A stretch of 64,000 bases of DNA from an uncultured Alphaproteobacteria bacterium (GTDB lineage Bacteria; Pseudomonadota; Alphaproteobacteria; CBDUZE01), in assembly GCA_965371625.1 (NCBI GenBank), contig CBDUZE010000002.1, positions 92,960 through 156,959 on the forward strand. The letters are read 5' to 3'. The notes under the pieces were generated by a model, which searched no databases, had not been told where the DNA came from, and saw only the letters and a program-made list of their open reading frames with translations. The stretch's first letter is position 1. Each line of letters opens with the position of its first letter. The translations under genes were made by a program, and so were the position numbers. Below are positions 1-62,136 of the stretch, one piece after another.

Positions 1-1629
1 CTCGAGCCGGTGGCGCCCCAGGGCAGCGTGCTCAGGGTGGACCAGGCGCGAAACCTGCTCATCCTGTCGGGCACCGGGCGGGAGCTCGGGAACTTGCTCG
101 AGATGATCGACCTCTTCGACGTCGATTGGCTCGCCGGCACCTCGTTCGCGCTCTATCCCCTCGAAACGGCCGGCGCCAAGGACTTGGTGAGCGAGCTCGA
201 GAACGTTCTCGGCGGCGATGACGGCCCGCTCGGCGGACTCGTGCGGCTCGTCCCCATCGAGCGCATCAACACCGTGCTGGTCATCACGCCGCGCCCGGAA
301 TACCTGGCCGAGGTGGGAAAGTGGATCGAGCGGCTCGACCGCGGTGGCGACAGCGTCCAGCAACGGCTCTACGTCTACTACGTCCAGAATGGGCGCGCCG
401 CCGACCTCGCGGCCATCCTGAACGACATCTTCTCGTTGGCCGAGCCGCGTCGGGAGCAGCCCGTCGAGCTCGCCCCCGGGCTCACCCCCGCCGAGATCAG
501 GGGTCGCGGCGCGCCAGGGTCCGCTCGCACCACCGGGCGGGGGACGCTGAGCCCGGCCCGGCAAATGATCGAGGCGCAACGGGCCGCCACCGCCGAACAG
601 TTCCGACGCCTCGCCGGCGAGCAATCGCCTACCCAAGCCGGCGCCCCCGCGACCACAACGCCCGGGGCCCCGGCCTTGGCCCCGGCGCCGGGGCCGCAGC
701 GCGCGACGGGCGAGGTGGCGACGCCGCAAATCACCAGCGACGTCCGCATAATCGCCGACGAGGCCAACAACGCGCTGGTCATCCTGGCCACGCCCCACGA
801 GTATCGCCAGATCTCGGCGGCGCTCGCCAAGCTCGACATCGTGCCGCTTCAGGTGCTGATCGAGGCCACCATCGCCGAGGTCACGCTCAACGACGAGCTG
901 CGCTATGGGGTGCAGTGGTTCATCCGCGACCTGGAGGGCGTCGACCTCAGCTTGAGCCAGGTGGCCGAGGGCGCCTTGGCCCAGGCCTTTCCCGGCTTCT
1001 CGGCGATCTTCAGCAGCGGCGGCGACCCCCGGGTGGTGCTCAACGCGCTGGCCAGCGTCACCGACGTCAACGTGATCTCGTCGCCCCAGCTCATGGTGTT
1101 GGACAACCAGACGGCGCTTATACAGGTGGGCGATCAGGTGCCGATCGCGATCCAGCAGGCGGTCAGCGTCGGCGATCCGAACGCGCCGATCGTGAACTCG
1201 ATCGAGTTCCGCGATACCGGCGTCATCTTGACGGTGACGCCCAGGGTCAACGCCAGCGGGCTGGTCACCATGGAGATCCAGCAGGAAGTGAGCGACGTCG
1301 CCACCACCACCACCTCGGGCATCGACTCGCCGACCATCCAGCAGCGCCGCATCGAGAGCACCATCGCGGTGCAGAGTGGGGCCACGGTGGTGCTGGGCGG
1401 GCTCATCCGCGACCGCCAGGGGGTGACCAAGAGCGGCGTCCCGCTGCTCCAGAATATCCCCTTCTTGGGCGCGCTGTTCCGCGACACCTTGAGCACCGGC
1501 TTGCGTACCGAGATCCTGGTGCTGATCACTCCGCGAGTGGTGCGGTCGCACCAGGAGGCACGCGATGTCACCGAGGAGCTCAAGCGCCGCTTCCGCGCCC
1601 TCGTTCCGCTCGGCGCGAGGATCGAGTAA
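1..1629 (+). CDS. gspD: Type II secretion system secretin (GspD-like), C-terminal part; 5' end lies outside the window
   Basis: The ORF is open to the window edge in the same frame as 10..1629. The translation has a GspD/PilQ-type secretin C-domain motif (VISSPQLMVLDNQTALIQVGDQVPI...GLVTMEIQQEVS...ILVLITPRVV). Confidence 0.75.
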   Translation, partial: LEPVAPQGSVLRVDQARNLLILSGTGRELGNLLEMIDLFDVDWLAGTSFALYPLETAGAKDLVSELENVLGGDDGPLGGLVRLVPIERINTVLVITPRPEYLAEVGKWIERLDRGGDSVQQRLYVYYVQNGRAADLAAILNDIFSLAEPRREQPVELAPGLTPAEIRGRGAPGSARTTGRGTLSPARQMIEAQRAATAEQFRRLAGEQSPTQAGAPATTTPGAPALAPAPGPQRATGEVATPQITSDVRIIADEANNALVILATPHEYRQISAALAKLDIVPLQVLIEATIAEVTLNDELRYGVQWFIRDLEGVDLSLSQVAEGALAQAFPGFSAIFSSGGDPRVVLNALASVTDVNVISSPQLMVLDNQTALIQVGDQVPIAIQQAVSVGDPNAPIVNSIEFRDTGVILTVTPRVNASGLVTMEIQQEVSDVATTTTSGIDSPTIQQRRIESTIAVQSGATVVLGGLIRDRQGVTKSGVPLLQNIPFLGALFRDTLSTGLRTEILVLITPRVVRSHQEARDVTEELKRRFRALVPLGARIE

Positions 1630-1722
1630 CTTGGCGGTCAGCCGTCAGCGATCAGCCGTCAGCGAGCTGATCGCAGACCGCCGATAGCTGACCGCTGATA
1701 GCTGAATGCTGACCGCTGACCG
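1630..1722. repeat. Intergenic hairpin-rich repeat patch: tandem 'cagccgtcagcga' x2 and 'gctgaccgctga' units forming a ~17-bp imperfect inverted repeat (ggcggtcagccgtcagc / gctgaccgctgaccgcc)
   Basis: Read directly from the sequence between the secretin stop and the gspK-like start. The right arm overlaps the gspK start codon. Confidence 0.6.
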
Positions 1723-2776
1723 CCAACGAGGCCTCGCCCTGATCGCGGTGCTGTGGGGGCTGGTGCTCTTATCGGTGATCGCGATGAGCGTCGTCACCAC
1801 CACCCGCACCGAGGCTCTGCTCGCCCGCAACGTGGCGGAAAACGCCGAGGCCAAGGCGCTGGCGGACGCTGGCGTGGAACGAGCGATTCTCGACCTCCGG
1901 GGGTCGGTGGTCAGGGGCACTCTCGGCGCCCAGCGCGACGACCCGATGAAACCGGGCGAAGGCGCCGCGGCGCTGTCCGGAGGACGCGAGGCGGAAGCGG
2001 AAGGATCGCCGGCCGAGCCTGGTTACGGCGCGGCTGCGGCGCTTCCGCCGGACGGAATGCGGGTGGACGGCAGCGTCTATTCCTGGCGGGTGCGCGGCGG
2101 CGAGGTCCTGATCAGCGCCCAGGACGAGGGCGGCAAGATCGACCTCAACCGTTCCCCCGACGGCATTATCCGGGGCCTGTTCGCGGCCGTGGGCGTGGCC
2201 GAGGACGAGGCCGCGGCCCTCACCGACAGCATCGTCGACTACCGCGACACCAACAACGCGCGGCGCTTGAACGGGGCCGAGGACTCCGACTATCGCGCCG
2301 CCGGCCGTCAGTACGGCGCCAAGGACCGCCCCTTCGAATCGACCGACGAGCTCCTCCAGGTGCTCGGCATGACGACCGAGGTCTATGAGCTGGTGGCCCC
2401 GGCGCTGACCGTCCATTCGCGGCGCCGCCGGGTCAACCGGGACACCGCGCCGCCCCTTGTGCTCGCGGCCCTGCTCGGCCTCGATGTCGAGGAGCTGACG
2501 GCGCGCGAGGCCGAGGAGCCGGCGGTCGAGGAAGCGCTCTCCTCCGGCCGCTCCCTGCCACAGCTGCGCCCCAGTGCCACCGGCCTGGCGCGCTCGCGTA
2601 TCGGCGTCTTCACGATACGCGCCGAGGCCCGCGCCAACAGCGGCGCGGTGTTCGTGCGCGAGGCGGTGATCAACCTCAAGGGCGACCCCGGACATCTCTA
2701 CCGCGTGCTCGAGTGGCGACGGGGGCGCCTGCGGGCGCCCGGCGGCGGGGCGGGCCCGGAGGGCGAGGGAGGTTAA
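1706..2776 (+). CDS. gspK: Type II secretion minor pseudopilin GspK-like protein
   Basis: N-terminus RGLALIAVLWGLVLLSVIAMSVV, followed by a periplasmic domain with SGAVFVREAVINL, is the typical GspK architecture. The gene sits directly after the secretin gene on the same strand. Confidence 0.65.
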   Translation: MLTADRQRGLALIAVLWGLVLLSVIAMSVVTTTRTEALLARNVAENAEAKALADAGVERAILDLRGSVVRGTLGAQRDDPMKPGEGAAALSGGREAEAEGSPAEPGYGAAAALPPDGMRVDGSVYSWRVRGGEVLISAQDEGGKIDLNRSPDGIIRGLFAAVGVAEDEAAALTDSIVDYRDTNNARRLNGAEDSDYRAAGRQYGAKDRPFESTDELLQVLGMTTEVYELVAPALTVHSRRRRVNRDTAPPLVLAALLGLDVEELTAREAEEPAVEEALSSGRSLPQLRPSATGLARSRIGVFTIRAEARANSGAVFVREAVINLKGDPGHLYRVLEWRRGRLRAPGGGAGPEGEGG

Positions 2777-2952
2777 GGGCCGGTGGGGCGACGGGGCGTG
2801 ATCGGAGACCGCTACCGAGGAAGCGAACAGCGGCGACCCTCAGGGCTCGGCTGGCAGCGAGGCTTTAGCTGCGCACTCATAGGGCACGAGACGCTGCCGC
2901 GGTTAATGACCGCGGGGCCCGAAGGCCCTGCGGCAAGGTCATCAATGCGGGA

Positions 2953-4641
2953 TTATTCATTTTCAGGGATGATACGAATCTCATCCCCCCTACCATTTTC
3001 GGTGCCGTCCACAGTCTCAGACTTGAGCACGGTATCCGGTTCACCATCCTCGATCAAGAATTCGGCCCTTTCCGCCTCGCACACTGAATTGAAAAGCTCA
3101 TCAACATTGAGGTTCTCTTCTTCGCACAGTGCGACAAATTGCGGGCTCGGCAGGCCCTCGAATATAGTCTCGATTTCAGTTCCGTCTAAATTTGCACGCT
3201 GAATCCGGCCTTCGTCGGAATCCGCCCAGTACATTTTGCCGGCAGATAGGTCGAGGGCAATCCCGACGGGGCTCGTTAACCCTGTTGTGACAAGATCGTC
3301 AATGCGTCCAGTACCATCTAGATTAGCTCTCTGAACCTTCTGATTACCGCCATCGACCCAGTACATCTTGCCGCCAACGGGATCGAGGGCGATTCCACGA
3401 GGACTGCCGAGTCCAGTGACAAGTTCCTGGACTCCAGAGCCATTGAGGTTCGCTCGCTGTATCCGACGCGCAAATTCTTCAGTCCAATATATCTTGCCAT
3501 TAACATTATCCAGGGCGATTCCTACCGGAGAATCGAGTTCGGTCACTATTTCCTCAACTGGCCCTGTTCCGTCGACATCAATTCGCTGGACATTTCCTGT
3601 ACTGGCATCGACCCAATATACGTGCCGACCTGCCGGGTCTACCGTGAGCCCGACGGGAGAAACCAGCCCAGTTGTCACCAGGTCCGTAACCTCTGAACCA
3701 TCGAGATTGGAGCGTTGCACCTTTTGCGTGAGATTATCGACCCAGTAGATCTTGCCCCCCGCAGAATCGATAGCGATCCCGCGTGGCGATCCCAATCCGC
3801 TTATCATCAGGTCCTCGACATCCATCTCGTCGGGATTGGCACGCTGGATCGTGGCGTCAATTGCGTCGGTCCAATACAATTTCTTGGGAAAGGATTCGGC
3901 CAGTTCCCCCGATTGCGAGCCGATAGACGCCGCGGTCCCCGGCGAAGACGATCGTGTTCCTGATACCCTTGGCGCGCCACCCCGCCTGGACGCCCCGCGC
4001 TCAAGATCGACGTTCGGGCTCGACGCCTTGCTCCCGCGTAGCGTCCGATCGCCCTCCGTCGCACGCACCCCAGCGACAACCGAGCTCTCGCGGTCTTCGG
4101 CGCCTGACTCCGGGATCCGCACGTCAATGGTGCCCCTTGTAGCTCCCGGCGGAGAGAGGGTCGCGTCGGTTGGTGGTGACCAGGCACCGCCGGTCGCCGA
4201 ATACACGGTCACCCGTGCCGGGTGCTTTGTTTGCCCCTTCCACGACCAGACAATCAGATAGTTTGTGTCACGCAGCAGGCGCCGAAGACCGTCTTCGAGG
4301 GACAGTCCGACAAAGGCGGCGGTCACCGTCACATCCGCGCCAGAACCCTTGAAGTGAAACCGGATCGCGGCCTGACGGGCGATCGCCTCCATGACCTCGC
4401 GAAGTGTCGCCGCCCTCAGCGAGACGGTCAGCCTTCCGTCGCTGAGTGTCACGATCGATCGCGCCGCGTTCCGCGCCTCGTCCGTCGCCTCAACCGCCGG
4501 CACATGGAGAGATCGGCGCTCCTCCTCCTGGGTTACTTGCGCCGACCCAGCGGCAGCCGACAACAGCACGCTCGCCGCGAGGATGAAGAAACGCCAACTC
4601 TGGAATAAGGTGCGTCGGGCCATGAGCCTACTGGGGCTCAC
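2953..4641 (-). CDS. Secreted six-bladed YWTD (LDL-receptor class B) beta-propeller protein with an STN/FecR-C-like N-terminal domain
   Basis: Signal peptide MARRTLFQSWRFFILAASVLLSAAAGSAQ. Six ~43-aa repeats follow (KLYWTD, KIYWVD, HVYWVD, KIYWTE, KMYWVD, KMYWAD), each ending in a ...RANLDG... motif. The coding region has markedly lower GC than its flanks. Confidence 0.7.
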   Translation of the reverse strand: MSPSRLMARRTLFQSWRFFILAASVLLSAAAGSAQVTQEEERRSLHVPAVEATDEARNAARSIVTLSDGRLTVSLRAATLREVMEAIARQAAIRFHFKGSGADVTVTAAFVGLSLEDGLRRLLRDTNYLIVWSWKGQTKHPARVTVYSATGGAWSPPTDATLSPPGATRGTIDVRIPESGAEDRESSVVAGVRATEGDRTLRGSKASSPNVDLERGASRRGGAPRVSGTRSSSPGTAASIGSQSGELAESFPKKLYWTDAIDATIQRANPDEMDVEDLMISGLGSPRGIAIDSAGGKIYWVDNLTQKVQRSNLDGSEVTDLVTTGLVSPVGLTVDPAGRHVYWVDASTGNVQRIDVDGTGPVEEIVTELDSPVGIALDNVNGKIYWTEEFARRIQRANLNGSGVQELVTGLGSPRGIALDPVGGKMYWVDGGNQKVQRANLDGTGRIDDLVTTGLTSPVGIALDLSAGKMYWADSDEGRIQRANLDGTEIETIFEGLPSPQFVALCEEENLNVDELFNSVCEAERAEFLIEDGEPDTVLKSETVDGTENGRGDEIRIIPENE

Positions 4642-4650
4642 CTAACCATT

Positions 4651-4690
4651 GGACACCATACTTAATTCGGGAGAAATGAGTATGGTGTCC
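4651..4690. repeat. Perfect 12-bp inverted repeat (ggacaccatact / agtatggtgtcc) with a 16-nt loop, in the 5' leader of the YWTD gene
   Basis: Read directly from the sequence, 10–50 nt upstream of the minus-strand start codon at 4641. Confidence 0.6.
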
Positions 4691-4742
4691 CCTTAGTTCC
4701 GCAGGCACAGGCTGGACCGCCTCAGCCTCGATCTCCAGGCTC

Positions 4743-4922
4743 TTAAGGCGTGGGCATTGGGATATTTGGACCGAGTTCATCTGCAATCGGGTTGCCCACT
4801 GCCTCCTGAATCGTGGAGTAGTCTCCGGGCACGTTAATCGTCGCCGCCAGCGTCGGCGATGATGTAAGAGCTACGCCGATCGCCGCCGCGGCGCCCATCA
4901 GTGTCGCTAGTTTTCTTGTCTT
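4743..4922 (-). pseudogene. N-terminal fragment (signal peptide + ~25 aa) of a beta-helix protein paralog
   Basis: ...KLATLMGAAAAIGVALTSSPTLAATINVPGDYSTIQEAVGN... parallels the N-terminus of the 5625..6725 protein (MKRLAVLAGATLLAG...NYATIQGAVNG). It stops after ~60 codons, and the same conserved upstream element precedes it. Confidence 0.45.
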
Positions 4923-4924
4923 GA

Positions 4925-5128
4925 ACCTCCCTATTGTTCGGGTTTCGAAAACCGGGTTGCGCGAAGACCGCCCGCGCCCCGGGCGTAGTCTCGGGCGGCG
5001 ACAGCGGTGTACCGAGCCCTCGATGGCGGGAACAAACCCCGCCTCGGACTCGCGCCAGACCGCGCCGCGCCGCCCAGTTGTCAATACTCAAGCACGATCG
5101 ACGGGATGGTGCATCCCCCGAATGGAGT
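4925..5128. repeat. Copy A of a duplicated ~210-bp non-coding leader/divergent-promoter element (about 75–80% identical to copy B at 6726..6960)
   Basis: Alignable by eye to 6726–6960, including the shared block gtctcgggcggcga...aaaccccgcctcgg...cccccgaatggagta. Confidence 0.6.
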
Positions 5129-5404
5129 ATGGTGGTAGCTTTTCGCGCATGTGGTTCGAGCAGCGCAGCGGTCGACGGTCGGCTCGACGCGGCGGCGCGC
5201 TCGCGCATCCTCCGCCGCGTGATCGCTTTGGAAGCGGAGCCGCGGCCGCCAGGGGCAGGCAAACCGGCCGGCGCGGAAGGGTTCTGGCGCATCCGCGCAG
5301 GCGACTATCGGATCGTGTACACGATCGACGACGCGAACCGCCTCGTCCTCGTGGTCGCCGTCGGCCACCGCCGCGAGGTCTATCGGAGGAAGCCGGGAAG
5401 TTGA
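5129..5404 (+). CDS. RelE/ParE-family type II toxin-like protein with no obvious cognate antitoxin gene
   Basis: C-terminal RelE/ParE signature ...RILRRVIALEAEPRPPGAGKPAGAEGFWRIRAGDYRIVYTIDDANRLVLVVAVGHRREVY. The N-terminus is degenerate, and no RelB/ParD-like small ORF lies upstream. Confidence 0.55.
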   Translation: MVVAFRACGSSSAAVDGRLDAAARSRILRRVIALEAEPRPPGAGKPAGAEGFWRIRAGDYRIVYTIDDANRLVLVVAVGHRREVYRRKPGS

Positions 5405-5624
5405 GCGATCCGCACGTCAGGCGCTCCGCGATTCCGGGTCAACTCGATCGGAGCCCGGCCCCCGGCGCGGCGGAGAAGACAAACGGGGCCAGAGAGAACT
5501 CAGGAGAACTGTCTCTGTATCTCTGGCCCCGTCACTCGCTACTTCCGGAAATAAGTACACTGTCCTAAGTAAACTGTCCCCGGAATTTCTGAATTTCCCC
5601 GCAATTCCATTCCGAAAGTGACCC

Positions 5625-6725
5625 TCAGTCGATCACGTTGGCGTGCACCTTAGCATTGTCATCGGAGCCCGTAATAATATCATCCGTGCAGTTTATCGTG
5701 TTGTGGATCACTTTATTGTTGTTGGCGCCCGAACCAATCCACACGCCTTCATTATCTCCACCATTGCAGGAAAGCGTGTTGTTGGTTACCTTGTTGTTCT
5801 CGGCAGTGGCAGGATTTGGCCCCCAGTAACCCGCCCGAGCGTCGATGGCTACAGCCGTTGAACTACCCGTCACCGTGTTCCGGATGACTCTGTTGCCATT
5901 GGAACCGGGTGCAGCGTAGCCATAGGCTGCAATGAACACGCCGACCTCGTTATCAGTGAGAGTGTTTCTTTGAATCATCACATCGTCAGTCTCGAAAACG
6001 AGGATGCCGGTGGCGCTCCAATCGACACCTGGAAACCAGTTACCGGTAACTTCGTTTCTCTTAACGCCCGCCGTCGCACCACGGCTCACCTGGATGCCGT
6101 TTTGGGCAACAAACGGAGTCGGGCCAGCTCCCTCGGTCACGTTCTCCGAGATGGTTGCGTCCGAACCGGCATTATCGACGACGATACCGCCCTTGTAATA
6201 GCCGACAATCTCGTTGTTGGTAATCGTTGCCGTGCCCACGGCGCTCCAGAAGGCGCGCCCAACCCAGATCCCCTGGACAAACCCGTCGATCTCGTTGCCG
6301 TCAACCGTGGCATCACCGTTGCCACTCACATAGATGCCTATCGCGCCGCCCGTGGTCGGCCCGGTGATTGTGAAATCCCGAATGCTGACCCCGGTGGCTC
6401 CGGCGACATGGACGACAGCTTCGGGCGAGGCCATCGATAGGGGAGCGTCGATAATCGCCAACAGGGGCGTGACCGACATCAAGCTGAGATCATCGGTTGC
6501 CACTGTAACCTGTTCTGTGTACGTGCCGGGACAGACCAAAATGGTGTCGTCAGGGCTCGCGCCATTGACCGCGCCCTGGATAGTGGCGTAGTTGGGAGCG
6601 ACGTCACACGGGGCATCCTCTAGGCTTCCGTCGTTCACAAACCACGTTGTTTGGGCCAGCGCCTGCCCCCCTCCAAGAATTCCAGCGAGCAGGGTAGCGC
6701 CTGCCAATACTGCAAGTCTCTTCAT
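5625..6725 (-). CDS. Secreted right-handed parallel beta-helix repeat protein (pectate-lyase-like fold)
   Basis: Start chosen at the internal ATG, which has AGGAGG 6 nt upstream (caggaggtaactATG). It has signal peptide MKRLAVLAGATLLAGILGGGQALAQ and multiple N-rich beta-helix repeats (NNKVTNNTLSCNGG.., NNKVIHNTINC). The coding region is low-GC. Confidence 0.7.
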   Translation of the reverse strand: MKRLAVLAGATLLAGILGGGQALAQTTWFVNDGSLEDAPCDVAPNYATIQGAVNGASPDDTILVCPGTYTEQVTVATDDLSLMSVTPLLAIIDAPLSMASPEAVVHVAGATGVSIRDFTITGPTTGGAIGIYVSGNGDATVDGNEIDGFVQGIWVGRAFWSAVGTATITNNEIVGYYKGGIVVDNAGSDATISENVTEGAGPTPFVAQNGIQVSRGATAGVKRNEVTGNWFPGVDWSATGILVFETDDVMIQRNTLTDNEVGVFIAAYGYAAPGSNGNRVIRNTVTGSSTAVAIDARAGYWGPNPATAENNKVTNNTLSCNGGDNEGVWIGSGANNNKVIHNTINCTDDIITGSDDNAKVHANVID

Positions 6726-6960
6726 AGTTACCTCCTGTCTGTTTTGCGCCCCAGAGCCCCTTGCAGGGCGTCGTGCGCCCACGTCCCCGGGGGATTGTCT
6801 CGGGCGGCGAAGACGGCCTCGTGGGCCCCTCGACGGCGGGTGCAAACCCCGCCTCGGGCTCGCGCGAGACCGCGATGCGCCGCCGAGTTGGAGCGACTCA
6901 AGCACGCGCAATGGGTTGGCGCGTCCCCCGAATGGAGTACGGCGGTATGAATTCGCGTAG
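6726..6960. repeat. Copy B of the duplicated leader element, with a degenerate relE-like start region following at ~6950–7040
   Basis: Alignable to 4925–5128. Downstream sequence (atgaattcgcgtaggaggttcgag...) parallels the relE-like 5' end of copy A but is disrupted. Confidence 0.55.
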
Positions 6961-7043
6961 GAGGTTCGAGGGCCGGGGCGGTCAGGGGTGGGCAATCAGC
7001 GGTCAGCTCGATCGCGGCCGAGGGCTGAGAACGCGCGCCCTCC

Positions 7044-7742
7044 TCACGCCCTGACGGCGGCGGGGCCGCAGAGCACCAGGCTCACCAGCTCCGCCTGCCG
7101 GTGGGTATCGGTCTTCGAGTAGATGCGCCTCAGGTGGGTGCGGACGGTTTCCCTGGTGATCCCCAGCCCGTCGGCGACGTGGTCCAGGCTGCGGCCCCGC
7201 GCCAGCGCCTCCACCAGGCGCGCCTCGGCCGCGGTGAGGCCGTAGAGGCCGACCAGGGCGTCTTGCCTGAGCTCGGGCTGGCGCTCCGGGTCGCTGACGA
7301 AGACGGCCGCGGTGGCCCCGCCGTCCGCGGCCCCGTGGCCATCGCCGAGCAACGGCATCACCAGCACCGAGAGCGGCGTTCCGGGCGAGAGCCGGGAGAG
7401 GGTCATCGCGCCATGCTCGCCAAGCTTTTCGCCGTCGCCGGCCCGGGCCGCCTCGCCGATCAGCCTCCTTAGCTCGGGCGTCTCCTGGTCCGAAGCCGCG
7501 CGCAGGCGGCCGCAGGCCACGGCGATGCCGTCGTCCTGGCCCAGGATCTCCTTCGCCGCGAGGTTCATGAAGCGCGGCCGGCCGCGCGCGTCGACCACGA
7601 TGACACCGATGGGAAAGCAGTCGAGAATCTTGGCGTCCGGGTTCCGATCCGGCCCCGGCCCGGCGGACGATCGCCGCCGCCGCGGTTCGCCCGCGCGGTG
7701 AGCCGCGCCAGCGCCGCGCGCCGTGTTGGATTTCTCGTCCAT
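7044..7742 (-). CDS. LuxR-family transcriptional regulator with an N-terminal PAS-like sensor domain
   Basis: C-terminal helix-turn-helix LTAAEARLVEALARGRSLDHVADGLGITRETVRTHLRRIYSKT. Start chosen at the ATG preceded by GGGAGGGGG (MDEKSNT...). The longer ORF-track start is unsupported. Confidence 0.7.
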   Translation of the reverse strand: MDEKSNTARGAGAAHRAGEPRRRRSSAGPGPDRNPDAKILDCFPIGVIVVDARGRPRFMNLAAKEILGQDDGIAVACGRLRAASDQETPELRRLIGEAARAGDGEKLGEHGAMTLSRLSPGTPLSVLVMPLLGDGHGAADGGATAAVFVSDPERQPELRQDALVGLYGLTAAEARLVEALARGRSLDHVADGLGITRETVRTHLRRIYSKTDTHRQAELVSLVLCGPAAVRA

Positions 7743-7899
7743 CCCGGCAACCCCCTCCCTGCTCTTCCGGGCGCCTGCCGCACGGCGCACCCCAGGGCTT
7801 CTTTTTGGCGGCGGCGCCCGCGCCCCATTTGGACCTATCCGCGCGTCCAGGTCGCCGGCCGGGCACCGCACCCCGCCACTTAACCGGGAATACTACTCC

Positions 7900-20703: not shown

Positions 20704-20992
20704 GACAGGCCTCCAGGCTTTGAGCGGCGGGCCGTAAACTGCCGCATGGCGTCTTCTACGACCTCAAAGATGGCACGAGAAGGGCCGGGAGCCAGTGACC
20801 AACGTCACAGGGGGAGACGTTCTTGGCGGTGCGGTGTGACAAGGTCGGCACGAAAACGGAAAATTAACCAACCACACGTATCGTCGCAGCCACTTCGGTC
20901 GGGGTTGACCTTTAGATGGTCGTGGCCAAGCCGGCGGCGACTCGCCGGGCGCTGAGGCCGGCGGTTGGGGCCCAACGAGACAGAGTGCCGGA

Positions 20993-22135
20993 ATGGAGAC
21001 AAGCGGCGTCCAATACCTGGAGAGCCTGGCCAAGCTGGCGGAGGAGCGATCGCCCGAAAAACGTCGGGTCCTGCTCGAGCGCATCTCGGATCTGTTCATC
21101 GCCTCGGGGCAGGAGGTGAGCGACGACGAATCGGCGCTCATGGGCGACATTCTCAATCGGCTGGTCCACGACGTGGAGATGACGGTGAGACGCACCCTCG
21201 CCGAACGTCTGGCCGACCTCGACAAAGCGCCGCGCGAATTGATCACCACCCTGGCCAATGACGAAATCGATGTCGCCGCGCCAATCCTGTTGAGTAGCGG
21301 CGTGCTCCAGGACAGCGACCTCATCGAGATCGTCAGACACCGCACCAAGGAGCACTTGATGGTGGTGGCCCGGCGCGACGCCATCAACGAGCCGGTGAGC
21401 GACGCCTTGGTGGACAACGGTGACGAGGACGTCATCGAGACCCTGCTCTATAACCATAACGCGATGATCTCGCGCCGCGCGATCAGCTATCTCGCCACCG
21501 AGTCGCAGCGGGTGGATCGCTTCCAGAAGCCGTTGCTGACCCGCCCCGACCTGCCGGCCAACCTCGCTTACGAGATGTTCGATTGGGTGTCCGCCGCCTT
21601 ACGCCAGCACATCCTCAGCAGCTACGACATCGACGAGACGCTGGTCGACGGTGTGCTCGAGGAAACGAAAAGGACGGCGTTGGACGATGACGACCTCGGC
21701 GCCGCGAGCAACGAGGCGATGAAACTGGTCCAGCGGCTCGAAAAGGCCGGGATGCTGACGGAAAGCTTTCTTGTGCAGACGCTCCGGGACGGACGGATCG
21801 GCGTCTTCATATCCGCGCTGGCCACCAAGAGCGGCATCGACCTCCAGACCGCCCGGCGCATCTTCTTCGACCGCGGCGAGGAGGGGCTGGCCATTATCTG
21901 CAAGGCCAGCGGCTTCGATCGCTCGACCTTCGCCTCGCTCACCCTGCTGCGGCGGAAAAGCGCCGAGCAAAGCGGACCCATGGCGCCCACGGTGCTGGAG
22001 AAGTTGATGAGCATGTACGACACCATCACCGCGCGCAACGCGCGGCGCGTTCTGCGCTTCTGGAACATCCGACAGCACGAGATCGGGACCCCGCCGGCCC
22101 AGGGTAGCGGCGCGGCGGTTGCGACAAGCATGTAA
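20993..22135 (+). CDS. DUF2336-family protein (HEAT-like repeats), copy 1
   Basis: 380-aa protein identical to the copy at 22577..23719. Repeat-rich helical motifs (ILLSSGVLQDSDLIEIVRHRTKEHLMVVARRD...) recall the alphaproteobacterial DUF2336 family. Confidence 0.6.
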   Translation: METSGVQYLESLAKLAEERSPEKRRVLLERISDLFIASGQEVSDDESALMGDILNRLVHDVEMTVRRTLAERLADLDKAPRELITTLANDEIDVAAPILLSSGVLQDSDLIEIVRHRTKEHLMVVARRDAINEPVSDALVDNGDEDVIETLLYNHNAMISRRAISYLATESQRVDRFQKPLLTRPDLPANLAYEMFDWVSAALRQHILSSYDIDETLVDGVLEETKRTALDDDDLGAASNEAMKLVQRLEKAGMLTESFLVQTLRDGRIGVFISALATKSGIDLQTARRIFFDRGEEGLAIICKASGFDRSTFASLTLLRRKSAEQSGPMAPTVLEKLMSMYDTITARNARRVLRFWNIRQHEIGTPPAQGSGAAVATSM

Positions 22136-22199
22136 CGGCGGATCGATCCCGGGTGCCGGCGGGCCCGGAGACACCGGCATAGCGGCGGAGAGCGAGATC

Positions 22200-22384
22200 G
22201 TGCGCAGGTGTATTTCAGCTTCGGATACCAACGGGACCTTCATCGGGTCAACAAGATCCGCCAGCTGCCGTAAATCATTGCCGGCGCGGCGGCGGGATTT
22301 TAGAGCGCCAAGATTTGGCAGGAGGCAAAGCGCAACGGCGATGGGGCGGTCCGTGGCCTCATCAACGACGCCCTCAGTGGCACC
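22200..22384 (+). pseudogene. Degenerate 5' fragment of the TIR-like gene (1-bp deletion, in-frame TAA)
   Basis: Alignable to 23784–23968 but carries cagg-tgta (1-bp deletion), ctgccgTAAatc and ~10% substitutions. Confidence 0.55.
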
Positions 22385-23968
22385 AACGTCACAGGGGGAG
22401 ACGTTCTTGGCGGTGCGGTGTGACGAGGTCGGCACGAAAACGGAAAATTAACCAACCACACGTATCGTCGCAGCCACTTCGGTCGGGGTTGACCTTTAGA
22501 TGGTCGTGGCCAAGCCGGCGGCGACTCGCCGGGCGCTGAGGCCGGCGGTTGGGGCCCAACGAGACAGAGTGCCGGAATGGAGACAAGCGGCGTCCAATAC
22601 CTGGAGAGCCTGGCCAAGCTGGCGGAGGAGCGATCGCCCGAAAAACGTCGGGTCCTGCTCGAGCGCATCTCGGATCTGTTCATCGCCTCGGGGCAGGAGG
22701 TGAGCGACGACGAATCGGCGCTCATGGGCGACATTCTCAATCGGCTGGTCCACGACGTGGAGATGACGGTGAGACGCACCCTCGCCGAACGTCTGGCCGA
22801 CCTCGACAAAGCGCCGCGCGAATTGATCACCACCCTGGCCAATGACGAAATCGATGTCGCCGCGCCAATCCTGTTGAGTAGCGGCGTGCTCCAGGACAGC
22901 GACCTCATCGAGATCGTCAGACACCGCACCAAGGAGCACTTGATGGTGGTGGCCCGGCGCGACGCCATCAACGAGCCGGTGAGCGACGCCTTGGTGGACA
23001 ACGGTGACGAGGACGTCATCGAGACCCTGCTCTATAACCATAACGCGATGATCTCGCGCCGCGCGATCAGCTATCTCGCCACCGAGTCGCAGCGGGTGGA
23101 TCGCTTCCAGAAGCCGTTGCTGACCCGCCCCGACCTGCCGGCCAACCTCGCTTACGAGATGTTCGATTGGGTGTCCGCCGCCTTACGCCAGCACATCCTC
23201 AGCAGCTACGACATCGACGAGACGCTGGTCGACGGTGTGCTCGAGGAAACGAAAAGGACGGCGTTGGACGATGACGACCTCGGCGCCGCGAGCAACGAGG
23301 CGATGAAACTGGTCCAGCGGCTCGAAAAGGCCGGGATGCTGACGGAAAGCTTTCTTGTGCAGACGCTCCGGGACGGACGGATCGGCGTCTTCATATCCGC
23401 GCTGGCCACCAAGAGCGGCATCGACCTCCAGACCGCCCGGCGCATCTTCTTCGACCGCGGCGAGGAGGGGCTGGCCATTATCTGCAAGGCCAGCGGCTTC
23501 GATCGCTCGACCTTCGCCTCGCTCACCCTGCTGCGGCGGAAAAGCGCCGAGCAAAGCGGACCCATGGCGCCCACGGTGCTGGAGAAGTTGATGAGCATGT
23601 ACGACACCATCACCGCGCGCAACGCGCGGCGCGTTCTGCGCTTCTGGAACATCCGACAGCACGAGATCGGGACCCCGCCGGCCCAGGGTAGCGGCGCGGC
23701 GGTTGCGACAAGCATGTAACGGCGGATCGATCCCGGGTGCCGGCGGCACCGGAGACAGCGGCAAAGCTTCGGAGAGTGAGATCGTGCGCAGGGTGTACTT
23801 CAGCTTCGACTACCGATGGGACCTTCATCGGGTCAACAAGATCCGCCAGCTGCCGCAAATCATTGCCGGCGCGGCGGCGGGATTTCAGAGCGCCAAGATT
23901 TGGCAGGAGGCAAAGCGCAACGGCGACGGAGCGGTCCATGGCCTCATCAACGACGCCCTCAGTGGCAC
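22385..23968 (+). repeat. Tandem direct repeat unit 2 (1,584 bp)
   Basis: See unit 1. Confidence 0.85.
22577..23719 (+). CDS. DUF2336-family protein, copy 2
   Basis: Identical translation to copy 1. Confidence 0.6.
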   Translation: METSGVQYLESLAKLAEERSPEKRRVLLERISDLFIASGQEVSDDESALMGDILNRLVHDVEMTVRRTLAERLADLDKAPRELITTLANDEIDVAAPILLSSGVLQDSDLIEIVRHRTKEHLMVVARRDAINEPVSDALVDNGDEDVIETLLYNHNAMISRRAISYLATESQRVDRFQKPLLTRPDLPANLAYEMFDWVSAALRQHILSSYDIDETLVDGVLEETKRTALDDDDLGAASNEAMKLVQRLEKAGMLTESFLVQTLRDGRIGVFISALATKSGIDLQTARRIFFDRGEEGLAIICKASGFDRSTFASLTLLRRKSAEQSGPMAPTVLEKLMSMYDTITARNARRVLRFWNIRQHEIGTPPAQGSGAAVATSM

Positions 23969-24278
23969 CAGCGTCACCGTGGTCTGCGTCGGCCACACGA
24001 CCGCCCATCGCAAGTACATCGTTTACGAGCTTGAACGGTCGTTCGAGCGCGGTAACGGACTGGTGGGGATCACCATCAACCACCTGAGCGATGGACAGGG
24101 GAAGTCCGACCCCGAGGCCTCGATTCCCCCGCTGCTCACGATCTCGGAAGCAGGCATCTACAAGTACAGCAACAAGCGGGATCTGGTGAATTGGATCGAG
24201 CAGGCGGCGGAAGCCGCCGCGCGAGAGCGCCAGCACGATTATCAGCATCAGCTCGTGATCCAGGGCAGCCCGGCCTAA
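23784..24278 (+). CDS. TIR-like domain protein (DUF1863/ThsB-like), GTG start
   Basis: N-terminal RRVYFSFDYRWDLHRVNKIRQ... matches the '(K/R)VF(F/I)SFxY' opening of TIR-like DUF1863 domains. GGAGAG 7 nt upstream of the GTG. Length ~165 aa. Confidence 0.5.
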   Translation: MRRVYFSFDYRWDLHRVNKIRQLPQIIAGAAAGFQSAKIWQEAKRNGDGAVHGLINDALSGTSVTVVCVGHTTAHRKYIVYELERSFERGNGLVGITINHLSDGQGKSDPEASIPPLLTISEAGIYKYSNKRDLVNWIEQAAEAAARERQHDYQHQLVIQGSPA

Positions 24279-48891: not shown

Positions 48892-49470
48892 ATGGCGACG
48901 CCGCCTGAGCTCGAGTGCGAGCGCCTGCGCCTGGTGCCCTTCGCCGAGCAGCACCTGAGCGAACGCTACGTGGGCTGGCTCAACGATCCAGAGGTGGTGC
49001 GGTTCAGCGAGCAGCGCCATCGCCAGCACAGCCTCGAGTCGTGCCGCGCCTATTGGCGCTCCTTCGAGGACGCGCCCAACCTGTTCTGGGCCATCGTCGC
49101 CCGCGACCCCGGGCTCGGCCATATCGGCAATCTGAGCGTCTATGTCGACCCCCCCAATCGGCTCGCCGACGTCACCATCCTGATCGGCGAGAAGCGGGCC
49201 TGGAAGCGGGGCCTGGGGTCCGAGGCCTGGTCGGCGGTGTGCGACTACCTGTTGGCGGCGGGCGGCATGCGCAAGGTCTCGGCCGGCACGCTGGCCGAGA
49301 ACGCGGGCATGCTCGGCATCATGCGCCGCGCCGGCATGGTCGAGGACGGCCGGCGGCGGCGCCACTACCTGTTGGAGGATCGCGAGGTCGACGTGGTCCA
49401 CCTCGCCCTGTTCCGGAGCGTCCCGCGAGGGCATCGCCTTGCGCCCGACCTTGAGAAAGCCCGCACATGA
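48892..49470 (+). CDS. GNAT-family N-acetyltransferase (RimL-like)
   Basis: ...GNLSVYVDPPNRLADVTILIGEKRAWKRGLGSEAW... GNAT core. Confidence 0.6.
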   Translation: MATPPELECERLRLVPFAEQHLSERYVGWLNDPEVVRFSEQRHRQHSLESCRAYWRSFEDAPNLFWAIVARDPGLGHIGNLSVYVDPPNRLADVTILIGEKRAWKRGLGSEAWSAVCDYLLAAGGMRKVSAGTLAENAGMLGIMRRAGMVEDGRRRRHYLLEDREVDVVHLALFRSVPRGHRLAPDLEKART

Positions 49471-60602: not shown

Positions 60603-61123
60603 GGATCGGCCGTCCGGCCGGCGAATCAACTGCCTGACCCGAACTCAGGGCCCCGAGCGAAGCCATGACCCACGTGGGAAGTTTTCCTGGATCGAGATCC
60701 GTCACCGTTATCTCTGGGCCGTTTGAACACAAGCGGACGTGGATAACGGCGGCGATCCGATCGCTCATAACTTGCGCTGCCGTGGCGGTAACCTGAGGGC
60801 GGATATGGCTCGTGCTGGATCGCAATTCGGCAACCCGGACCGTGCGGTCAGTCGCCATCCGGTCGCCAGCTCAAATGCGAAAACAGCGACAGTATCGTGA
60901 TCCCGGGTTGGTATCGCCGCCGCTCTTGCGGTTCCTACGTTTCCTTCGTTGTGGAGCTAAGCCCACGACCATCGAAATCTCTGTGGCGGCCGAGAACTTC
61001 TTGCCGCCATTATGGCCCGTCGTCGACGCTAGATCATCTCGCCCCCTCGGCTCCGGTCGAACCTGACAGGCCGCCATGCGAATACGACATGCGATCGCTC
61101 CTGCCAAGTAAAGCTGTACCCAA

Positions 61124-62092: not shown

Positions 62093-62136
62093 CAGCGCGC
62101 TTCGGCTGTCATCGGAAAGATGCTTAGGGATTAGCG

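What the first reader, a model, noticed from the sequence alone, without database searches (positions are those of the whole stretch)
2953..6725. Low-GC islet encoding a bacterial six-bladed YWTD (LDL-receptor class B) propeller and a beta-helix protein
The 2.9–6.7 kb stretch is visibly less GC-rich than both flanks. It encodes two secreted proteins. The first has six tandem YWTD repeats (KLYWTD, KIYWVD, HVYWVD, KIYWTE, KMYWVD, KMYWAD), which is the eukaryotic LDLR/LRP/nidogen-type propeller and rare in bacteria. Before the propeller it has an N-terminal segment (TVSLRAATLREVMEAIARQAAIRFHF...LLRDTNYLIVWS) that reads like an STN/FecR-C-type domain. The second is a right-handed parallel beta-helix protein (pectate-lyase/adhesin-like). 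Composition and content suggest horizontally acquired surface or host-interaction factors placed right after type II secretion genes.
Basis: partly seen in the sequence, partly recalled or inferred. Interest (0 to 1): 0.6.

Follow-up and report, generated by a model that had tools for sequence, protein, structure and literature searches.

The report
Low-GC islet with chimeric YWTD-propeller gene
A 4.2-kb patch of foreign-looking DNA next to a bacterial secretion-system locus carries a one-of-a-kind fusion of a secretin-type docking domain to an LDL-receptor-type six-bladed propeller, plus a small beta-helix protein and leftovers of duplicated genes; it is a real but fairly ordinary acquired islet whose proteins have no known function.

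Summary
Window ~2.79-7.01 kb has GC 0.51-0.60 against ~0.70 in the flanks. GC3 is 0.55-0.77 against 0.87-0.92.

ORF 2953-4623(-) has six 42-44-aa YWTD blades (Pfam Ldl_recept_b, E 3.5e-41) and matches LRP2/4/6, LDLR and nidogen structures. ORF 5625-6725(-) is a right-handed beta-helix protein.

The N-terminal "STN-like" reading is supported at fold level and by remote sequence links, but it does not reach Pfam's STN cut-off.

- The YWTD gene is a chimera. Residues 10-180 are 50% identical to a free-standing ~250-aa family. The propeller resembles the blades of large multidomain secreted proteins. GC3 drops from 0.70-0.85 to 0.40-0.60 along the gene.
- There is an orphan ParE toxin gene.
- There is a start-less, truncated beta-helix paralogue.
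- A two-copy tandem repeat (spacing 1,810 bp) has a 187-nt core that is 76% identical between copies.

Bacterial YWTD propellers are not rare: more than 3,800 database hits. No integrase, tRNA or clear target duplication was found. T2SS dependence is untested.

Verdict: a horizontally acquired, partly decayed mosaic islet. The domain combination is new, the protein function is unknown, and interest is modest.

The parts
10..1629 (+). Flank: gspD secretin gene. Its 5' end is cut by the window edge.
   Evidence: Pfam Secretin E 1e-47 and Secretin_N E 1.3e-25. GC3 0.92.
1706..2776 (+). Flank: gspK-like minor pseudopilin gene. It marks the left border of the islet.
   Evidence: Pfam T2SSK_1st E 1e-17. 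NCBIfam T2SS_GspK scores 87.9 bits, below its cut-off of 130. GC3 0.88. The gspD-gspK order is conserved in L001 and L002.
2895..2952 (-). GC-rich stem-loop just after the YWTD stop codon. Terminator-like, but with no U-tract.
   Evidence: RNA fold -29.6 kcal/mol, z -2.95.
2953..4623 (-). Chimeric secreted protein gene, 556 aa (P0001). An alternative GTG start lies at 4641.
   Evidence: Exact protein in the database as a singleton cluster. Pfam results. GC3 falls from 0.70-0.85 to 0.40-0.60 along the gene.
4537..4623 (-). Predicted Sec signal peptide, residues 1-29 (MARRTLFQSWRFFILAASVLLSAAAGSA|Q).
   Evidence: Read directly from the translation. The homologue P0197 aligns from this region onward. 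No predictor was run.
4195..4458 (-). STN/N0-like domain, residues ~56-143, with strand-strand-helix-strand-strand-helix-strand-strand order.
   Evidence: AlphaFold2 with a 30-sequence alignment gives pLDDT>90. Foldseek top hits are InvG, GspD, PilQ and XcpQ N0, FpvA and PupB signalling domains, PupR C-terminal domain and DotD, with probability up to 0.99. 442 homologous cluster representatives. Pfam STN is below its cut-off.
3886..4194 (-). Low-complexity Ser/Gly/Arg/Pro-rich linker, residues ~144-246. The junction between the two parental parts lies at about residues 220-226.
   Evidence: pLDDT ~50. P0197 homology runs to residue 180. P0002 homology starts at residue 226.
3112..3885 (-). Six-bladed YWTD (LDL-receptor class B) beta-propeller, residues 247-504.
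   Evidence: Ldl_recept_b E 3.5e-41. Six blades of 42-44 aa, 47% mean pairwise identity. 57% identity to P0002 blades. PDB hits to LRP2/4/6, LDLR and nidogen. The DNA repeat family D2 reflects the blades.
2956..3111 (-). Acidic C-terminal tail, residues 505-556, with no recognisable sorting signal.
   Evidence: No Pfam hit. No BLASTP match among the 345 fetched proteins.
4651..4690 (.). Near-perfect palindrome (18-nt arms) in the 100 nt between the pseudogene fragment and the YWTD start. It shares a motif with the repeat cores.
   Evidence: Inverted repeat I5. RNA fold -24.6 kcal/mol, z -4.2. The motif occurs three times against 0 expected.
4743..4919 (-). Truncated paralogue of the beta-helix gene: ribosome-binding site, signal peptide and the 'INVPGDYSTIQEAV' cap only. 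The start codon ATG has become ACA.
   Evidence: Alignment with the 5' end of the intact gene. BLASTP to the N-termini of beta-helix family members, E down to 9e-5. No Pfam hit, as expected for 58 aa.
4977..5163 (.). Repeat core, copy 1. It is the divergent intergenic region between the beta-helix fragment and ParE, and overlaps the ParE start.
   Evidence: 76% identity to 6786-6973 with one gap, while the flanks fall to 38-55%.
5120..5404 (+). Orphan ParE/RelE-family toxin gene, 94 aa, with a divergent N-terminus and no antitoxin gene.
   Evidence: Pfam ParE_toxin E 7.8e-13, matching profile positions 24-89 only. No antitoxin-like ORF in any frame upstream or downstream. GC3 0.77.
5478..5531 (-). 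Strong stem-loop between the convergent ParE and beta-helix genes. On the minus strand it is followed by GUUUGUCUUCU, so it is the likely beta-helix terminator.
   Evidence: RNA fold -30.9 kcal/mol (minus strand) and -32.1 kcal/mol (plus strand), z -3.0 and -3.8. The Rfam 'mir-761' match here is sub-threshold noise.
5625..6725 (-). Secreted right-handed parallel beta-helix protein, 366 aa (P0121), with an AGGAGG ribosome-binding site 5 nt upstream.
   Evidence: Pfam Beta_helix E 4e-20 and NosD E 4e-11. 76 homologues, best 62% identical. The family profile finds only weak PDB matches. GC3 0.66.
6786..6973 (.). Repeat core, copy 2, upstream of the intact beta-helix gene.
6930..6983 (+). ParE 5' remnant in copy 2. 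ATG has become ACG, an in-frame stop follows after three codons, and the remnant is cut off near the islet's right edge.
   Evidence: Frame translations. The alignment ends at 6983.
7044..7871 (-). Flank: PAS + LuxR/GerE-type regulator gene. It marks the right border of the islet and is convergent with gspK.
   Evidence: Pfam GerE E 6.5e-7 and PAS_8 E 1.8e-4. GC3 0.89.

Best explanation
The stretch is a ~4.2-kb horizontally acquired, partly decayed mosaic islet. It sits between the 3' ends of two convergent resident genes: gspK of a type II secretion locus and a PAS-LuxR regulator gene.

Contents:
(1) A chimeric gene. Its 5' part (signal peptide, an ~88-residue STN/N0-type domain and a linker) derives from a family of free-standing ~250-aa exported proteins. 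Its 3' part is a six-bladed YWTD propeller of the kind found in large multidomain secreted bacterial proteins.
(2) Two copies, 1,810 bp apart, of a module made of a beta-helix gene and a ParE gene diverging from a shared intergenic region. Both outer ends are eroded. What remains is one truncated start-less beta-helix fragment, one full but antitoxin-less ParE, one intact beta-helix gene and one ParE stub.

Likely working (inferred, not shown):
- Both intact proteins are exported by Sec through cleavable signal peptides.
- In the fusion protein, the STN/N0-type domain acts as a protein-docking module, as such domains do in secretins, TonB-dependent transducers and FecR-type anti-sigma factors. 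A ~100-residue flexible linker tethers the propeller, which acts as the ligand-binding module.
- The beta-helix protein is a secreted polysaccharide-binding or polysaccharide-modifying protein of unknown specificity.
- The orphan ParE is probably inactive, or is neutralised by an antitoxin encoded elsewhere.
For: Shown:
- GC and GC3 deviate strongly and unevenly across the islet: 0.55, 0.66, 0.73 and 0.77 against 0.87-0.92 in the flanks.
- Propeller identity.
- P0001 residues 10-180 align to P0197 (251 aa) residues 29-184 at 50% identity, E 2e-43. The P0197 gene has GC3 0.89.
- P0001 residues 226-499 align to tandem blades of P0002 (958 aa) at up to 57% identity.
- No protein among the best 120 propeller hits carries STN. 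None of the best 150 N-domain hits carries a propeller: their lengths are mostly 110-420 aa, and the longer ones are secretins, HEAT proteins or a giant repeat protein.
- STN/N0 fold. Sequence links to the STN/N0 arrays of true secretins.
- Other members of the N-domain family carry helical or HEAT-repeat C-termini, so the domain is a portable N-terminal module.
- Repeat and pseudogenes.
- A distant beta-helix homologue (P0127, 46% identical) also lies convergent to a ParE-antitoxin pair.
- Hairpins bound the transcription units.
- Homologous propellers occur with dockerin, CARDB, FlgD-Ig and T9SS-tail domains, i.e. in exported proteins.
Against: - No mobility gene, tRNA or convincing target-site duplication marks the islet. 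Its mode of arrival is unknown.
- No close relative of the host genome was available to show an empty site. The nearest gspD is only 48-50% identical.
- The fusion protein is a database singleton. It may be an accident of decay rather than a working protein.
- The signal peptides were judged by eye.
- The docking role of the STN/N0 domain is by analogy only. Family members show no conserved secretin, TonB-receptor or ECF-sigma neighbours.
- The two ParE proteins are only 33% identical, so the beta-helix/ParE linkage could be coincidence.
- Foldseek E-values are modest (0.017-0.4), although the hits are consistent.
Confidence: 0.55

Rival explanations
1. The two proteins are substrates or accessory factors of the adjacent type II secretion system. 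The N0-like domain of the fusion protein docks on the secretin or GspC, and the propeller is delivered to, or held at, the cell surface.
For: The islet is adjacent to gspD-gspK. The N-terminal domain has the fold of the secretin N0 domain, which is the part that contacts GspC; 3oss and 4jtm are among the hits. Both proteins have signal peptides, as T2SS substrates require.
Against: The YWTD gene is on the opposite strand, convergent with gspK, and of different composition. In the two nearest T2SS loci nothing similar follows gspK. N-domain family members elsewhere lie beside glycogen-synthase-like, ABC-binding-protein, exosortase and GSDH genes, never secretion genes. T2SS substrates cannot be recognised from sequence.
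Confidence: 0.15
2. The 556-aa ORF is a non-functional by-product of islet decay. A deletion joined a P0197-like gene to a propeller fragment, and the product is not used by the cell.
For: The surroundings are visibly decaying: a start-less beta-helix fragment, a ParE stub and an antitoxin-less ParE. The architecture is a singleton. The linker and tail are low-complexity and have no homologues. GC3 changes along the gene.
Against: The 1,671-nt frame is intact in 59% GC DNA. It has an intact signal peptide, a confidently folding N-domain and six complete, regular blades. The codon-position GC pattern is that of a coding sequence in both halves. The same N-domain is naturally combined with other binding modules such as HEAT repeats, so a new C-terminal module is plausible.
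Confidence: 0.22
3. The region is an array of integron gene cassettes without an integrase. The hairpins would be attC recombination sites.
For: Low-GC genes that appear promoter-less, together with a toxin gene, are typical cassette cargo. The palindrome at 4651-4690 is followed on the coding strand by GTTAGGT, which fits the GTTRRRY core, directly upstream of the YWTD start.
Against: The inverse core does not pair beyond AAC/GTT. The stem is perfect, without the extrahelical bases that attC sites need. The other gene boundaries (2776-2952, 5404-5625) show no comparable site. No integrase domain was seen in the islet or flanking ORFs scanned. The beta-helix gene has its own upstream region and ribosome-binding site.
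Confidence: 0.03
4. The islet is a prophage remnant. The beta-helix protein would be a tailspike-like receptor-binding protein.
For: Beta-helices are common in tailspikes. A 32-nt stretch of repeat core copy 2 is 90% identical to part of a phage terminase gene in viral contig L037. One weak profile hit is to a putative tail fibre.
Against: The protein is small (366 aa), has a Sec signal peptide, and belongs to a family of similar free-standing exported proteins in non-viral contigs. The terminase match covers only 7 residues, is out of frame upstream, and was found after selecting on an exact 16-mer. No other phage gene is present. The PADLOC defence-system scan found nothing in the three islet proteins; PHROGs was not run.
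Confidence: 0.03

Closest known systems
Eukaryotic YWTD / LDL-receptor class B propellers (LDLR, LRP2/4/5/6, nidogen)
   Same: Six ~43-residue blades carrying the YWTD motif. Highly significant sequence homology to the solved propellers.
   Different: No flanking EGF or LDL-A modules. The blades are far more regular (47% mean pairwise identity). The context is bacterial and exported. The ligand is unknown.
Bacterial multidomain YWTD-propeller proteins (for example P0002, 958 aa, with FlgD-Ig, PPC, dockerin or CARDB domains; annotated 'PQQ-binding-like beta-propeller repeat protein', 'YncE' or 'YvrE')
   Same: Closest propeller relatives, 40-57% identical over the whole propeller. Exported proteins.
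   Different: Those proteins have 12 or more blades and C-terminal adhesion or anchoring domains. This one has a single propeller, an STN/N0-like N-terminal domain and an acidic tail. No functional study of this group was found in the paper library.
STN domain (Pfam PF07660) / secretin N0 domain / C-terminal domain of FecR-type anti-sigma factors
   Same: Same fold and size by model comparison. Sub-threshold STN hits in the same register in 7 of 10 family members. Sequence matches to STN/N0 arrays of true secretins.
   Different: The family does not reach the Pfam STN cut-off. It is not part of a secretin, a TonB-dependent receptor or an anti-sigma factor. It occurs as the N-terminal module of small exported proteins with helical or HEAT C-termini.
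Right-handed parallel beta-helix proteins of the NosD / CASH / pectinesterase type
   Same: Pfam Beta_helix and NosD repeats. The N-terminal 'Y-x-T-I-Q-x-A-V' cap is shared with pectinesterases and PL6 lyases.
   Different: It scores far below the NosD family cut-off (47 against 300 bits). No nos genes are nearby. The pectinesterase match covers the cap only, so no catalytic assignment is possible.
ParDE / RelBE type II toxin-antitoxin modules
   Same: ParE_toxin domain, small size, location in an acquired islet.
   Different: No antitoxin gene. The N-terminal 23 profile positions are not matched. A second, truncated copy is present.

Membership tests
YWTD / LDL-receptor class B propeller (PF00058) | Profile score above the Pfam gathering cut-off | tested here: met
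   139.8 bits against 21, E 3.5e-41, 5 stretches.
YWTD / LDL-receptor class B propeller (PF00058) | Six tandem ~43-residue blades, each with a YWTD-type motif | tested here: met
   KLYWTD, KIYWVD, HVYWVD, KIYWTE, KMYWVD, KMYWAD. Blades of 42-44 aa.
YWTD / LDL-receptor class B propeller (PF00058) | Homology to experimentally solved YWTD propellers | tested here: met
   LRP2 9e-169, LRP6 2.5e-66, LDLR 3e-26, nidogen 1.9e-25.
YWTD / LDL-receptor class B propeller (PF00058) | Closed six-blade fold in three dimensions | not tested
The fold is inferred from homology only.
LDL-receptor family architecture | Propeller flanked by EGF and/or LDL-A modules | tested here: not met
   No EGF or Ldl_recept_a hit in Pfam. 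The protein shares the domain, not the receptor architecture.
STN domain (PF07660) / secretin N0 | Profile score above the Pfam gathering cut-off | tested here: not met
   16.3-17.5 bits against 28.4. Family members score 15-23 bits.
STN domain (PF07660) / secretin N0 | N0/STN-type fold of two strand-helix-strand-type units | tested here: met
   Model pLDDT>90 for residues 33-120 of the construct. All top Foldseek PDB hits are N0 or STN domains, probability 0.9-0.99, target-normalised TM-score 0.66 to GspD N0 4jtm.
STN domain (PF07660) / secretin N0 | Sequence-level link to bona fide STN/N0 domains | tested here: met
   Whole-library phmmer E 3.7e-7 and 8.2e-7 to secretins P0248 and P0265. The matched stretches include regions that Pfam calls STN, GspD N0 and FecR_C.
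STN domain (PF07660) / secretin N0 | Context: N-terminus of a secretin or TonB-dependent receptor, or C-terminus of a FecR-type anti-sigma factor | tested here: not met
   The protein has none of those parts. Family members do not either, apart from the two secretins.
Right-handed parallel beta-helix (PF13229) | Profile score above cut-off | tested here: met
   72.5 bits against 25.9.
NosD (nitrous oxide reductase maturation) | NCBIfam NosD family score above cut-off, and a nos gene neighbourhood | tested here: not met
   47.4 bits against 300. No nos genes in the flanks.
ParE toxin of a type II TA system | ParE_toxin profile above cut-off | tested here: met
   47.5-49.2 bits against 23, but only profile positions 24-89 are matched.
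ParE toxin of a type II TA system | Adjacent cognate antitoxin gene | tested here: not met
   No antitoxin-like ORF within 400 nt on either side. tblastn with the L031 antitoxin finds nothing nearby.
Genomic island (horizontally acquired) | Deviant base composition and codon usage with sharp borders | tested here: met
Genomic island (horizontally acquired) | Mobility hallmarks: integrase or transposase, tRNA target, flanking direct repeats | tested here: not met
   The only tRNA is at 25 kb. No recombinase domain appears in the islet ORFs. Only a low-complexity 12-mer is shared by the two borders.
Genomic island (horizontally acquired) | Absence from the same site in close relatives | not testable with these tools
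   The source genome and its close relatives are not in the species-representative collection. The nearest gspD is 48-50% identical and shows no synteny beyond gspK.
Type II secretion substrate | Export depends on the T2SS | not testable with these tools
   Needs experiment. Only adjacency and signal peptides are seen.
Integron cassette array | attC sites (paired R''/R' cores, extrahelical bases) at each cassette boundary | tested here: inconclusive
   One palindrome followed by GTTAGGT. The inverse core does not pair and there are no bulged bases. The other boundaries lack such sites. No dedicated attC model was available.

The most novel reading that the evidence does not exclude
The ~90-residue N-terminal domain defines an undescribed, widespread family of exported STN/N0-type adaptor modules: at least 442 cluster representatives, with no Pfam or NCBIfam model passing its cut-off. 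On this reading, the modules dock interchangeable binding modules (helical, HEAT-repeat or, here, a YWTD propeller) onto secretins or TonB-dependent transducers by beta-strand augmentation. The fusion encoded beside gspD would then be a secretin-associated ligand-binding factor.
Probability: 0.08. Interest if true: 0.6.

Novelty: new variant of a known kind. Interest (0 to 1): 0.3.

Why it matters
In itself this is a routine acquired islet.

Two points have some wider value.

First, it is a clean natural example of domain shuffling inside an island. The seam is still visible in both homology and codon usage: a docking domain of the secretin/TonB-receptor type has been joined to an LDL-receptor-type propeller.

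Second, it exposes two large groups of exported bacterial proteins with essentially no functional data. One is the YWTD propellers, with thousands of members. The other is a family of small STN/N0-like proteins that current domain libraries do not capture. If the N0-like module docks on secretins or transducers, the family would be a new class of periplasmic adaptors.

Tried and rejected
- Word-indexed homology search with the N-terminal 121 residues found nothing. Only the exhaustive search found the family.
- Single-sequence AlphaFold of the N-terminal region gave pLDDT 40 and was unusable.
- PDB sequence search with the N-domain gave only antibody light chains by chance, and HasR at E 0.69.
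- Rfam on 1-12 kb gave only two sub-threshold chance matches, to a microRNA and a snoRNA.
- gspD-based comparison found no close relative and no synteny past gspK, so no empty site could be shown.
- Contexts of the N-domain family came from short contigs with unrelated neighbours.
- Antitoxin search by ORF listing and by tblastn with the L031 antitoxin was negative.
- Repeat core as a coding sequence: the differences come in blocks rather than at third codon positions, and no frame resembles a protein. Rejected.
- Repeat core as a structured RNA: RNAalifold on the two copies predicts a long stem enclosing a hairpin, but most stem pairs are invariant, the DNA is GC-rich and there are only two sequences. 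Left open.
- Searches for more copies of the core in the fetched loci and in viral contigs gave only 16-mer chance hits, plus one 32-nt match inside a phage terminase gene that does not extend.
- PADLOC found no defence-system hit for the three islet proteins.
- The integron attC reading and the prophage reading were considered and judged unlikely (see rival explanations).

Full report

Yes. In 500-nt windows, GC falls from 0.68-0.74 (1-2750) to 0.51-0.65 between 2751 and 6750. It returns to 0.73-0.74 from 6751. The window mean is 0.663, sd 0.056.

Third-position GC gives the clearest signal. Six flanking genes have GC3 0.87-0.92. The islet values are 0.55 (propeller part of the YWTD gene), 0.66 (beta-helix gene), 0.73 (N-terminal part of the YWTD gene) and 0.77 (ParE).

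- The first scores Ldl_recept_b at E 3.5e-41, 139.8 bits against a cut-off of 21.
- It has six blades of 42-44 residues with the quoted YW motifs. Mean pairwise blade identity is 47%.
- It matches the solved propellers of LRP2, LRP4, LRP6, LDLR and nidogen at E 1e-169 to 1e-25.
- The second scores Beta_helix at E 4e-20 and NosD at E 4e-11.
- Both begin with sequences that read as Sec signal peptides. This is my reading of the translation; no predictor was available.

**2.

*(a) The YWTD gene is a chimera.*

- Residues 10-180 of the 556-aa product (P0001) align with residues 29-184 of a free-standing 251-aa protein, P0197, at 50% identity and E 2e-43. The P0197 gene has GC3 0.89.
- Residues 226-499 align with the tandem blades of P0002, a 958-aa multidomain secreted protein, at up to 57% identity.
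- GC3 along the gene drops from 0.70-0.85 to 0.40-0.60.
- No protein among the best 120 propeller relatives carries an STN hit.
- Among the best 150 relatives of the N-terminal domain, only P0001 itself has a propeller. The long ones are secretins, HEAT-repeat proteins or a giant repeat protein.
- P0001 is a one-member cluster.
- The linker (residues ~144-246) and the acidic 52-residue tail have no homologues among the fetched proteins, apart from the stretch of the linker shared with P0197.

*(b) Between the two genes lies a ParE/RelE-family toxin gene, 5120-5404(+).*

- Pfam ParE_toxin gives E 7.8e-13, matching profile positions 24-89 only.
- No antitoxin gene is present in any frame upstream or downstream.

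*(c) 4743-4919(-) is the stump of a second beta-helix gene.*

- It keeps the ribosome-binding site, a signal peptide and the 'INVPGDYSTIQEAV' cap.
- It matches the N-termini of beta-helix family members at E down to 9e-5.
- The ATG has become ACA, and homology stops after ~45 residues.

*(d) There is a two-copy direct repeat.*

- 4977-5163 and 6786-6973 are 76% identical with a single gap.
- Weaker similarity continues into the beta-helix 5' coding region on one side and the ParE 5' coding region on the other.
- In copy 2 the ParE start is ACG and a stop follows three codons later.
- Reading rightwards on the plus strand, the order is: beta-helix stump (reads leftwards), intergenic core 1, ParE (reads rightwards), beta-helix gene (reads leftwards), intergenic core 2, ParE stub (reads rightwards).
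- This is two tandem copies, start-to-start spacing 1,810 bp, of a module made of a beta-helix gene and a ParE gene diverging from a shared intergenic region.
- The left copy is cut where the YWTD gene region begins. The right copy is cut at the islet's edge.
- A distant beta-helix homologue (P0127, 46% identical) also lies convergent to a ParE-antitoxin pair in a metagenome contig. The two ParE proteins are only 33% identical, so the linkage may be coincidental.

*(e) Strong hairpins delimit the units.*

- One lies after the YWTD stop: 2895-2952, -29.6 kcal/mol.
- One lies between the convergent ParE and beta-helix genes: 5478-5531. On the minus strand it is followed by a U-rich run, so it is the probable beta-helix terminator.
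- One is a near-perfect palindrome at 4651-4690, just upstream of the YWTD start: -24.6 kcal/mol, z -4.2.
- A 20-nt motif in that palindrome recurs in both repeat cores: three matches against none expected.

**3. The N-terminal domain**

Pfam STN is below its cut-off (16-17.5 against 28.4 bits). A word-indexed search found no relatives.

An exhaustive phmmer search of 1.84 billion representatives found 442 proteins at E<=1e-3.

- Most are 170-350-aa proteins with an N-terminal signal-like segment and the domain, followed by either a helical region or HEAT repeats.
- None reaches a Pfam or NCBIfam cut-off for the domain.
- Seven of ten show sub-threshold STN hits in the same register.
- The hit list also contains two true secretins. 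Their N-terminal arrays of STN, GspD-N0 and FecR_C-type domains are matched repeatedly by the query.

AlphaFold2 with a 30-sequence family alignment gives pLDDT>90 for ~88 residues. The secondary-structure order is strand-strand-helix-strand-strand-helix-strand-strand.

Foldseek against PDB returns only N0/STN-type domains at the top:

- secretin N0 domains of InvG, GspD, PilQ, XcpQ and MxiD;
- signalling domains of FpvA and PupB;
- the C-terminal domain of PupR;
- DotD.

Probabilities are up to 0.99 and the target-normalised TM-score to GspD N0 (4jtm) is 0.66. The E-values are modest, 0.017-0.4.

I conclude that the domain belongs to the STN/N0 fold group but is a distinct, undescribed family.

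**4. 'Rare in bacteria'**

This is not supported. Of the 8,000 candidates scored, 3,859 had E<=1e-5.

- The best hits come from metagenomes and from MAGs named Caldilineaceae and Planctomycetes.
- They carry prokaryote-type partner domains: dockerin, CARDB, FlgD-Ig, PPC and the T9SS tail.
- These partner domains also indicate that such propellers are normally parts of exported proteins.
- I found no functional study of bacterial YWTD propellers in the paper library.

**5. The beta-helix protein**

It belongs to a sparse family of 76 homologues. The best is 62% identical, and most are 310-410 aa.

A family profile finds only weak PDB matches:

- the N-terminal cap of pectinesterases and a PL6 alginate lyase (E 1e-7 to 1e-4);
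- a stretch of NosD (E 2e-6).

It scores far below the NosD family cut-off (47 against 300 bits), and no nos genes are nearby. A polysaccharide-related role is a reasonable inference from the fold class, no more.

**6. Setting**

The islet lies between gspK (stop at 2776, plus strand) and a PAS-LuxR regulator gene (stop at 7044, minus strand). That is, it sits between two convergent 3' ends.

- The nearest gspD relatives are 48-50% identical: a Rhodospirillales MAG and Virgifigura deserti. The host is therefore probably an alphaproteobacterium of that neighbourhood (inference).
- In those loci gspD-gspK is conserved but nothing downstream is shared. An 'empty site' could not be shown.
- No tRNA, recombinase domain or credible target duplication marks the borders.
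- PADLOC finds no defence system in the three islet proteins.

**7. How it most likely works**

Shown:

- foreign composition;
- domain identities;
- the chimeric seam;
- the repeat and the pseudogenes.

Inferred:

- Both intact proteins are exported by Sec.
- The STN/N0-type domain serves as a docking module, by analogy with secretin N0-GspC contacts and TonB-receptor/anti-sigma contacts (established knowledge of those families).
- The long flexible linker tethers the propeller as a binding module.
- The beta-helix protein acts on or binds a polysaccharide.
- ParE is inactive or neutralised from elsewhere.

I give 0.55 to the overall statement. Most of that weight rests on the structural and evolutionary part.

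Rivals:

- T2SS substrate or accessory factor, 0.15. It rests on adjacency and the N0 fold only. The strand, the composition and the family contexts argue against it.
- Non-functional decay product, 0.22. The singleton status and the decaying surroundings favour it. The intact frame, the signal peptide, the confident fold and six regular blades argue against it.
- Integron cassettes, 0.03.
- Prophage remnant, 0.03.

**8. Novelty and score**

The parts belong to known families. The islet as such is ordinary. Two things are new: the domain combination (STN/N0-like plus YWTD propeller), and the recognition that the N-terminal module represents a sizeable uncharacterised family. I rate it 'new variant of a known kind', interest 0.3.

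The most novel reading not excluded is that this family is a class of periplasmic adaptors that dock variable binding modules on secretins or transducers. I give it probability ~0.08 and interest 0.6 if true.

Noticed in passing
window 20798-23982: Tandem duplication with a 1,584-nt spacing. 300 nt are 100% identical between copies, and a third partial copy is 93% identical. It produces two identical 380-aa ORFs (20993-22135 and 22577-23719, 'METSGVQYLESLAKLAEERSPEKRR...'). This is either a very recent duplication or an assembly artefact.
   Followed up: partly
window 49467-50963 and 57891-63264: Further low-GC stretches (down to GC 0.41 at ~61.3 kb). They encode a capsule-synthesis-like protein, an MBOAT acyltransferase, an unknown 399-aa protein, a sulfotransferase and an NAD-dependent epimerase. 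This is probably a surface-polysaccharide cluster, so low-GC patches are not unique to the islet.
   Followed up: partly
window 4977-5163 and 6786-6973: The 187-nt repeat core is much better conserved (76%, one gap) than the coding sequence on either side (38-55%). Differences fall in blocks. Both copies keep a GGCGGG-N7-CCCGCC hairpin enclosed by a GGGCGGCG/CGCCGCC(C) stem. It could be a shared divergent promoter/operator or a structured RNA. Two sequences cannot decide.
   Followed up: partly
window 4655-4674(+), 5114-5133(-), 6924-6943(-): The 20-nt motif ACCATACTCCATTCGGGGGA occurs three times (up to 3 mismatches allowed) against none expected. All copies are in the islet: one in the palindrome just upstream of the YWTD start, two in the repeat cores overlapping the ParE start or its remnant. 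It is a possible common operator.
   Followed up: partly
L031 1300-2000: In a metagenome contig, a beta-helix homologue (46% identical) is followed by a convergent ParE-antitoxin pair. That pair is itself bracketed by a ~55-nt direct repeat, as if the toxin-antitoxin pair had been inserted as a unit.
   Followed up: no
L015 1-2044: The closest relative of the N-terminal half (P0197) is encoded 5 nt downstream of a glucose/sorbosone-dehydrogenase-type six-bladed propeller gene. This is a second case of this small STN-like protein being paired with a beta-propeller, here as a neighbour rather than a fusion.
   Followed up: no
P0198 (3261 aa), residues 332-1928: A giant protein carries 17 tandem ~97-residue repeats that match the C-terminal half of the N-domain (query residues ~56-104), plus a planctomycete-type domain and a P-loop region.
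   Followed up: no
L037 1584-1614 against window 6924-6955: A 32-nt stretch of repeat core copy 2 is 90% identical to part of a phage large-terminase gene (coding '...CRRTPFGG...'). The match does not extend, and the frame differs upstream. It is probably chance after selecting on an exact 16-mer.
   Followed up: yes
window 2740-2751 and 7055-7066: The 12-mer CGGCGGCGGGGC occurs inside the 3' ends of both flanking genes, gspK and luxR. It is low-complexity GC-rich coding sequence and not a convincing target-site duplication.
   Followed up: yes
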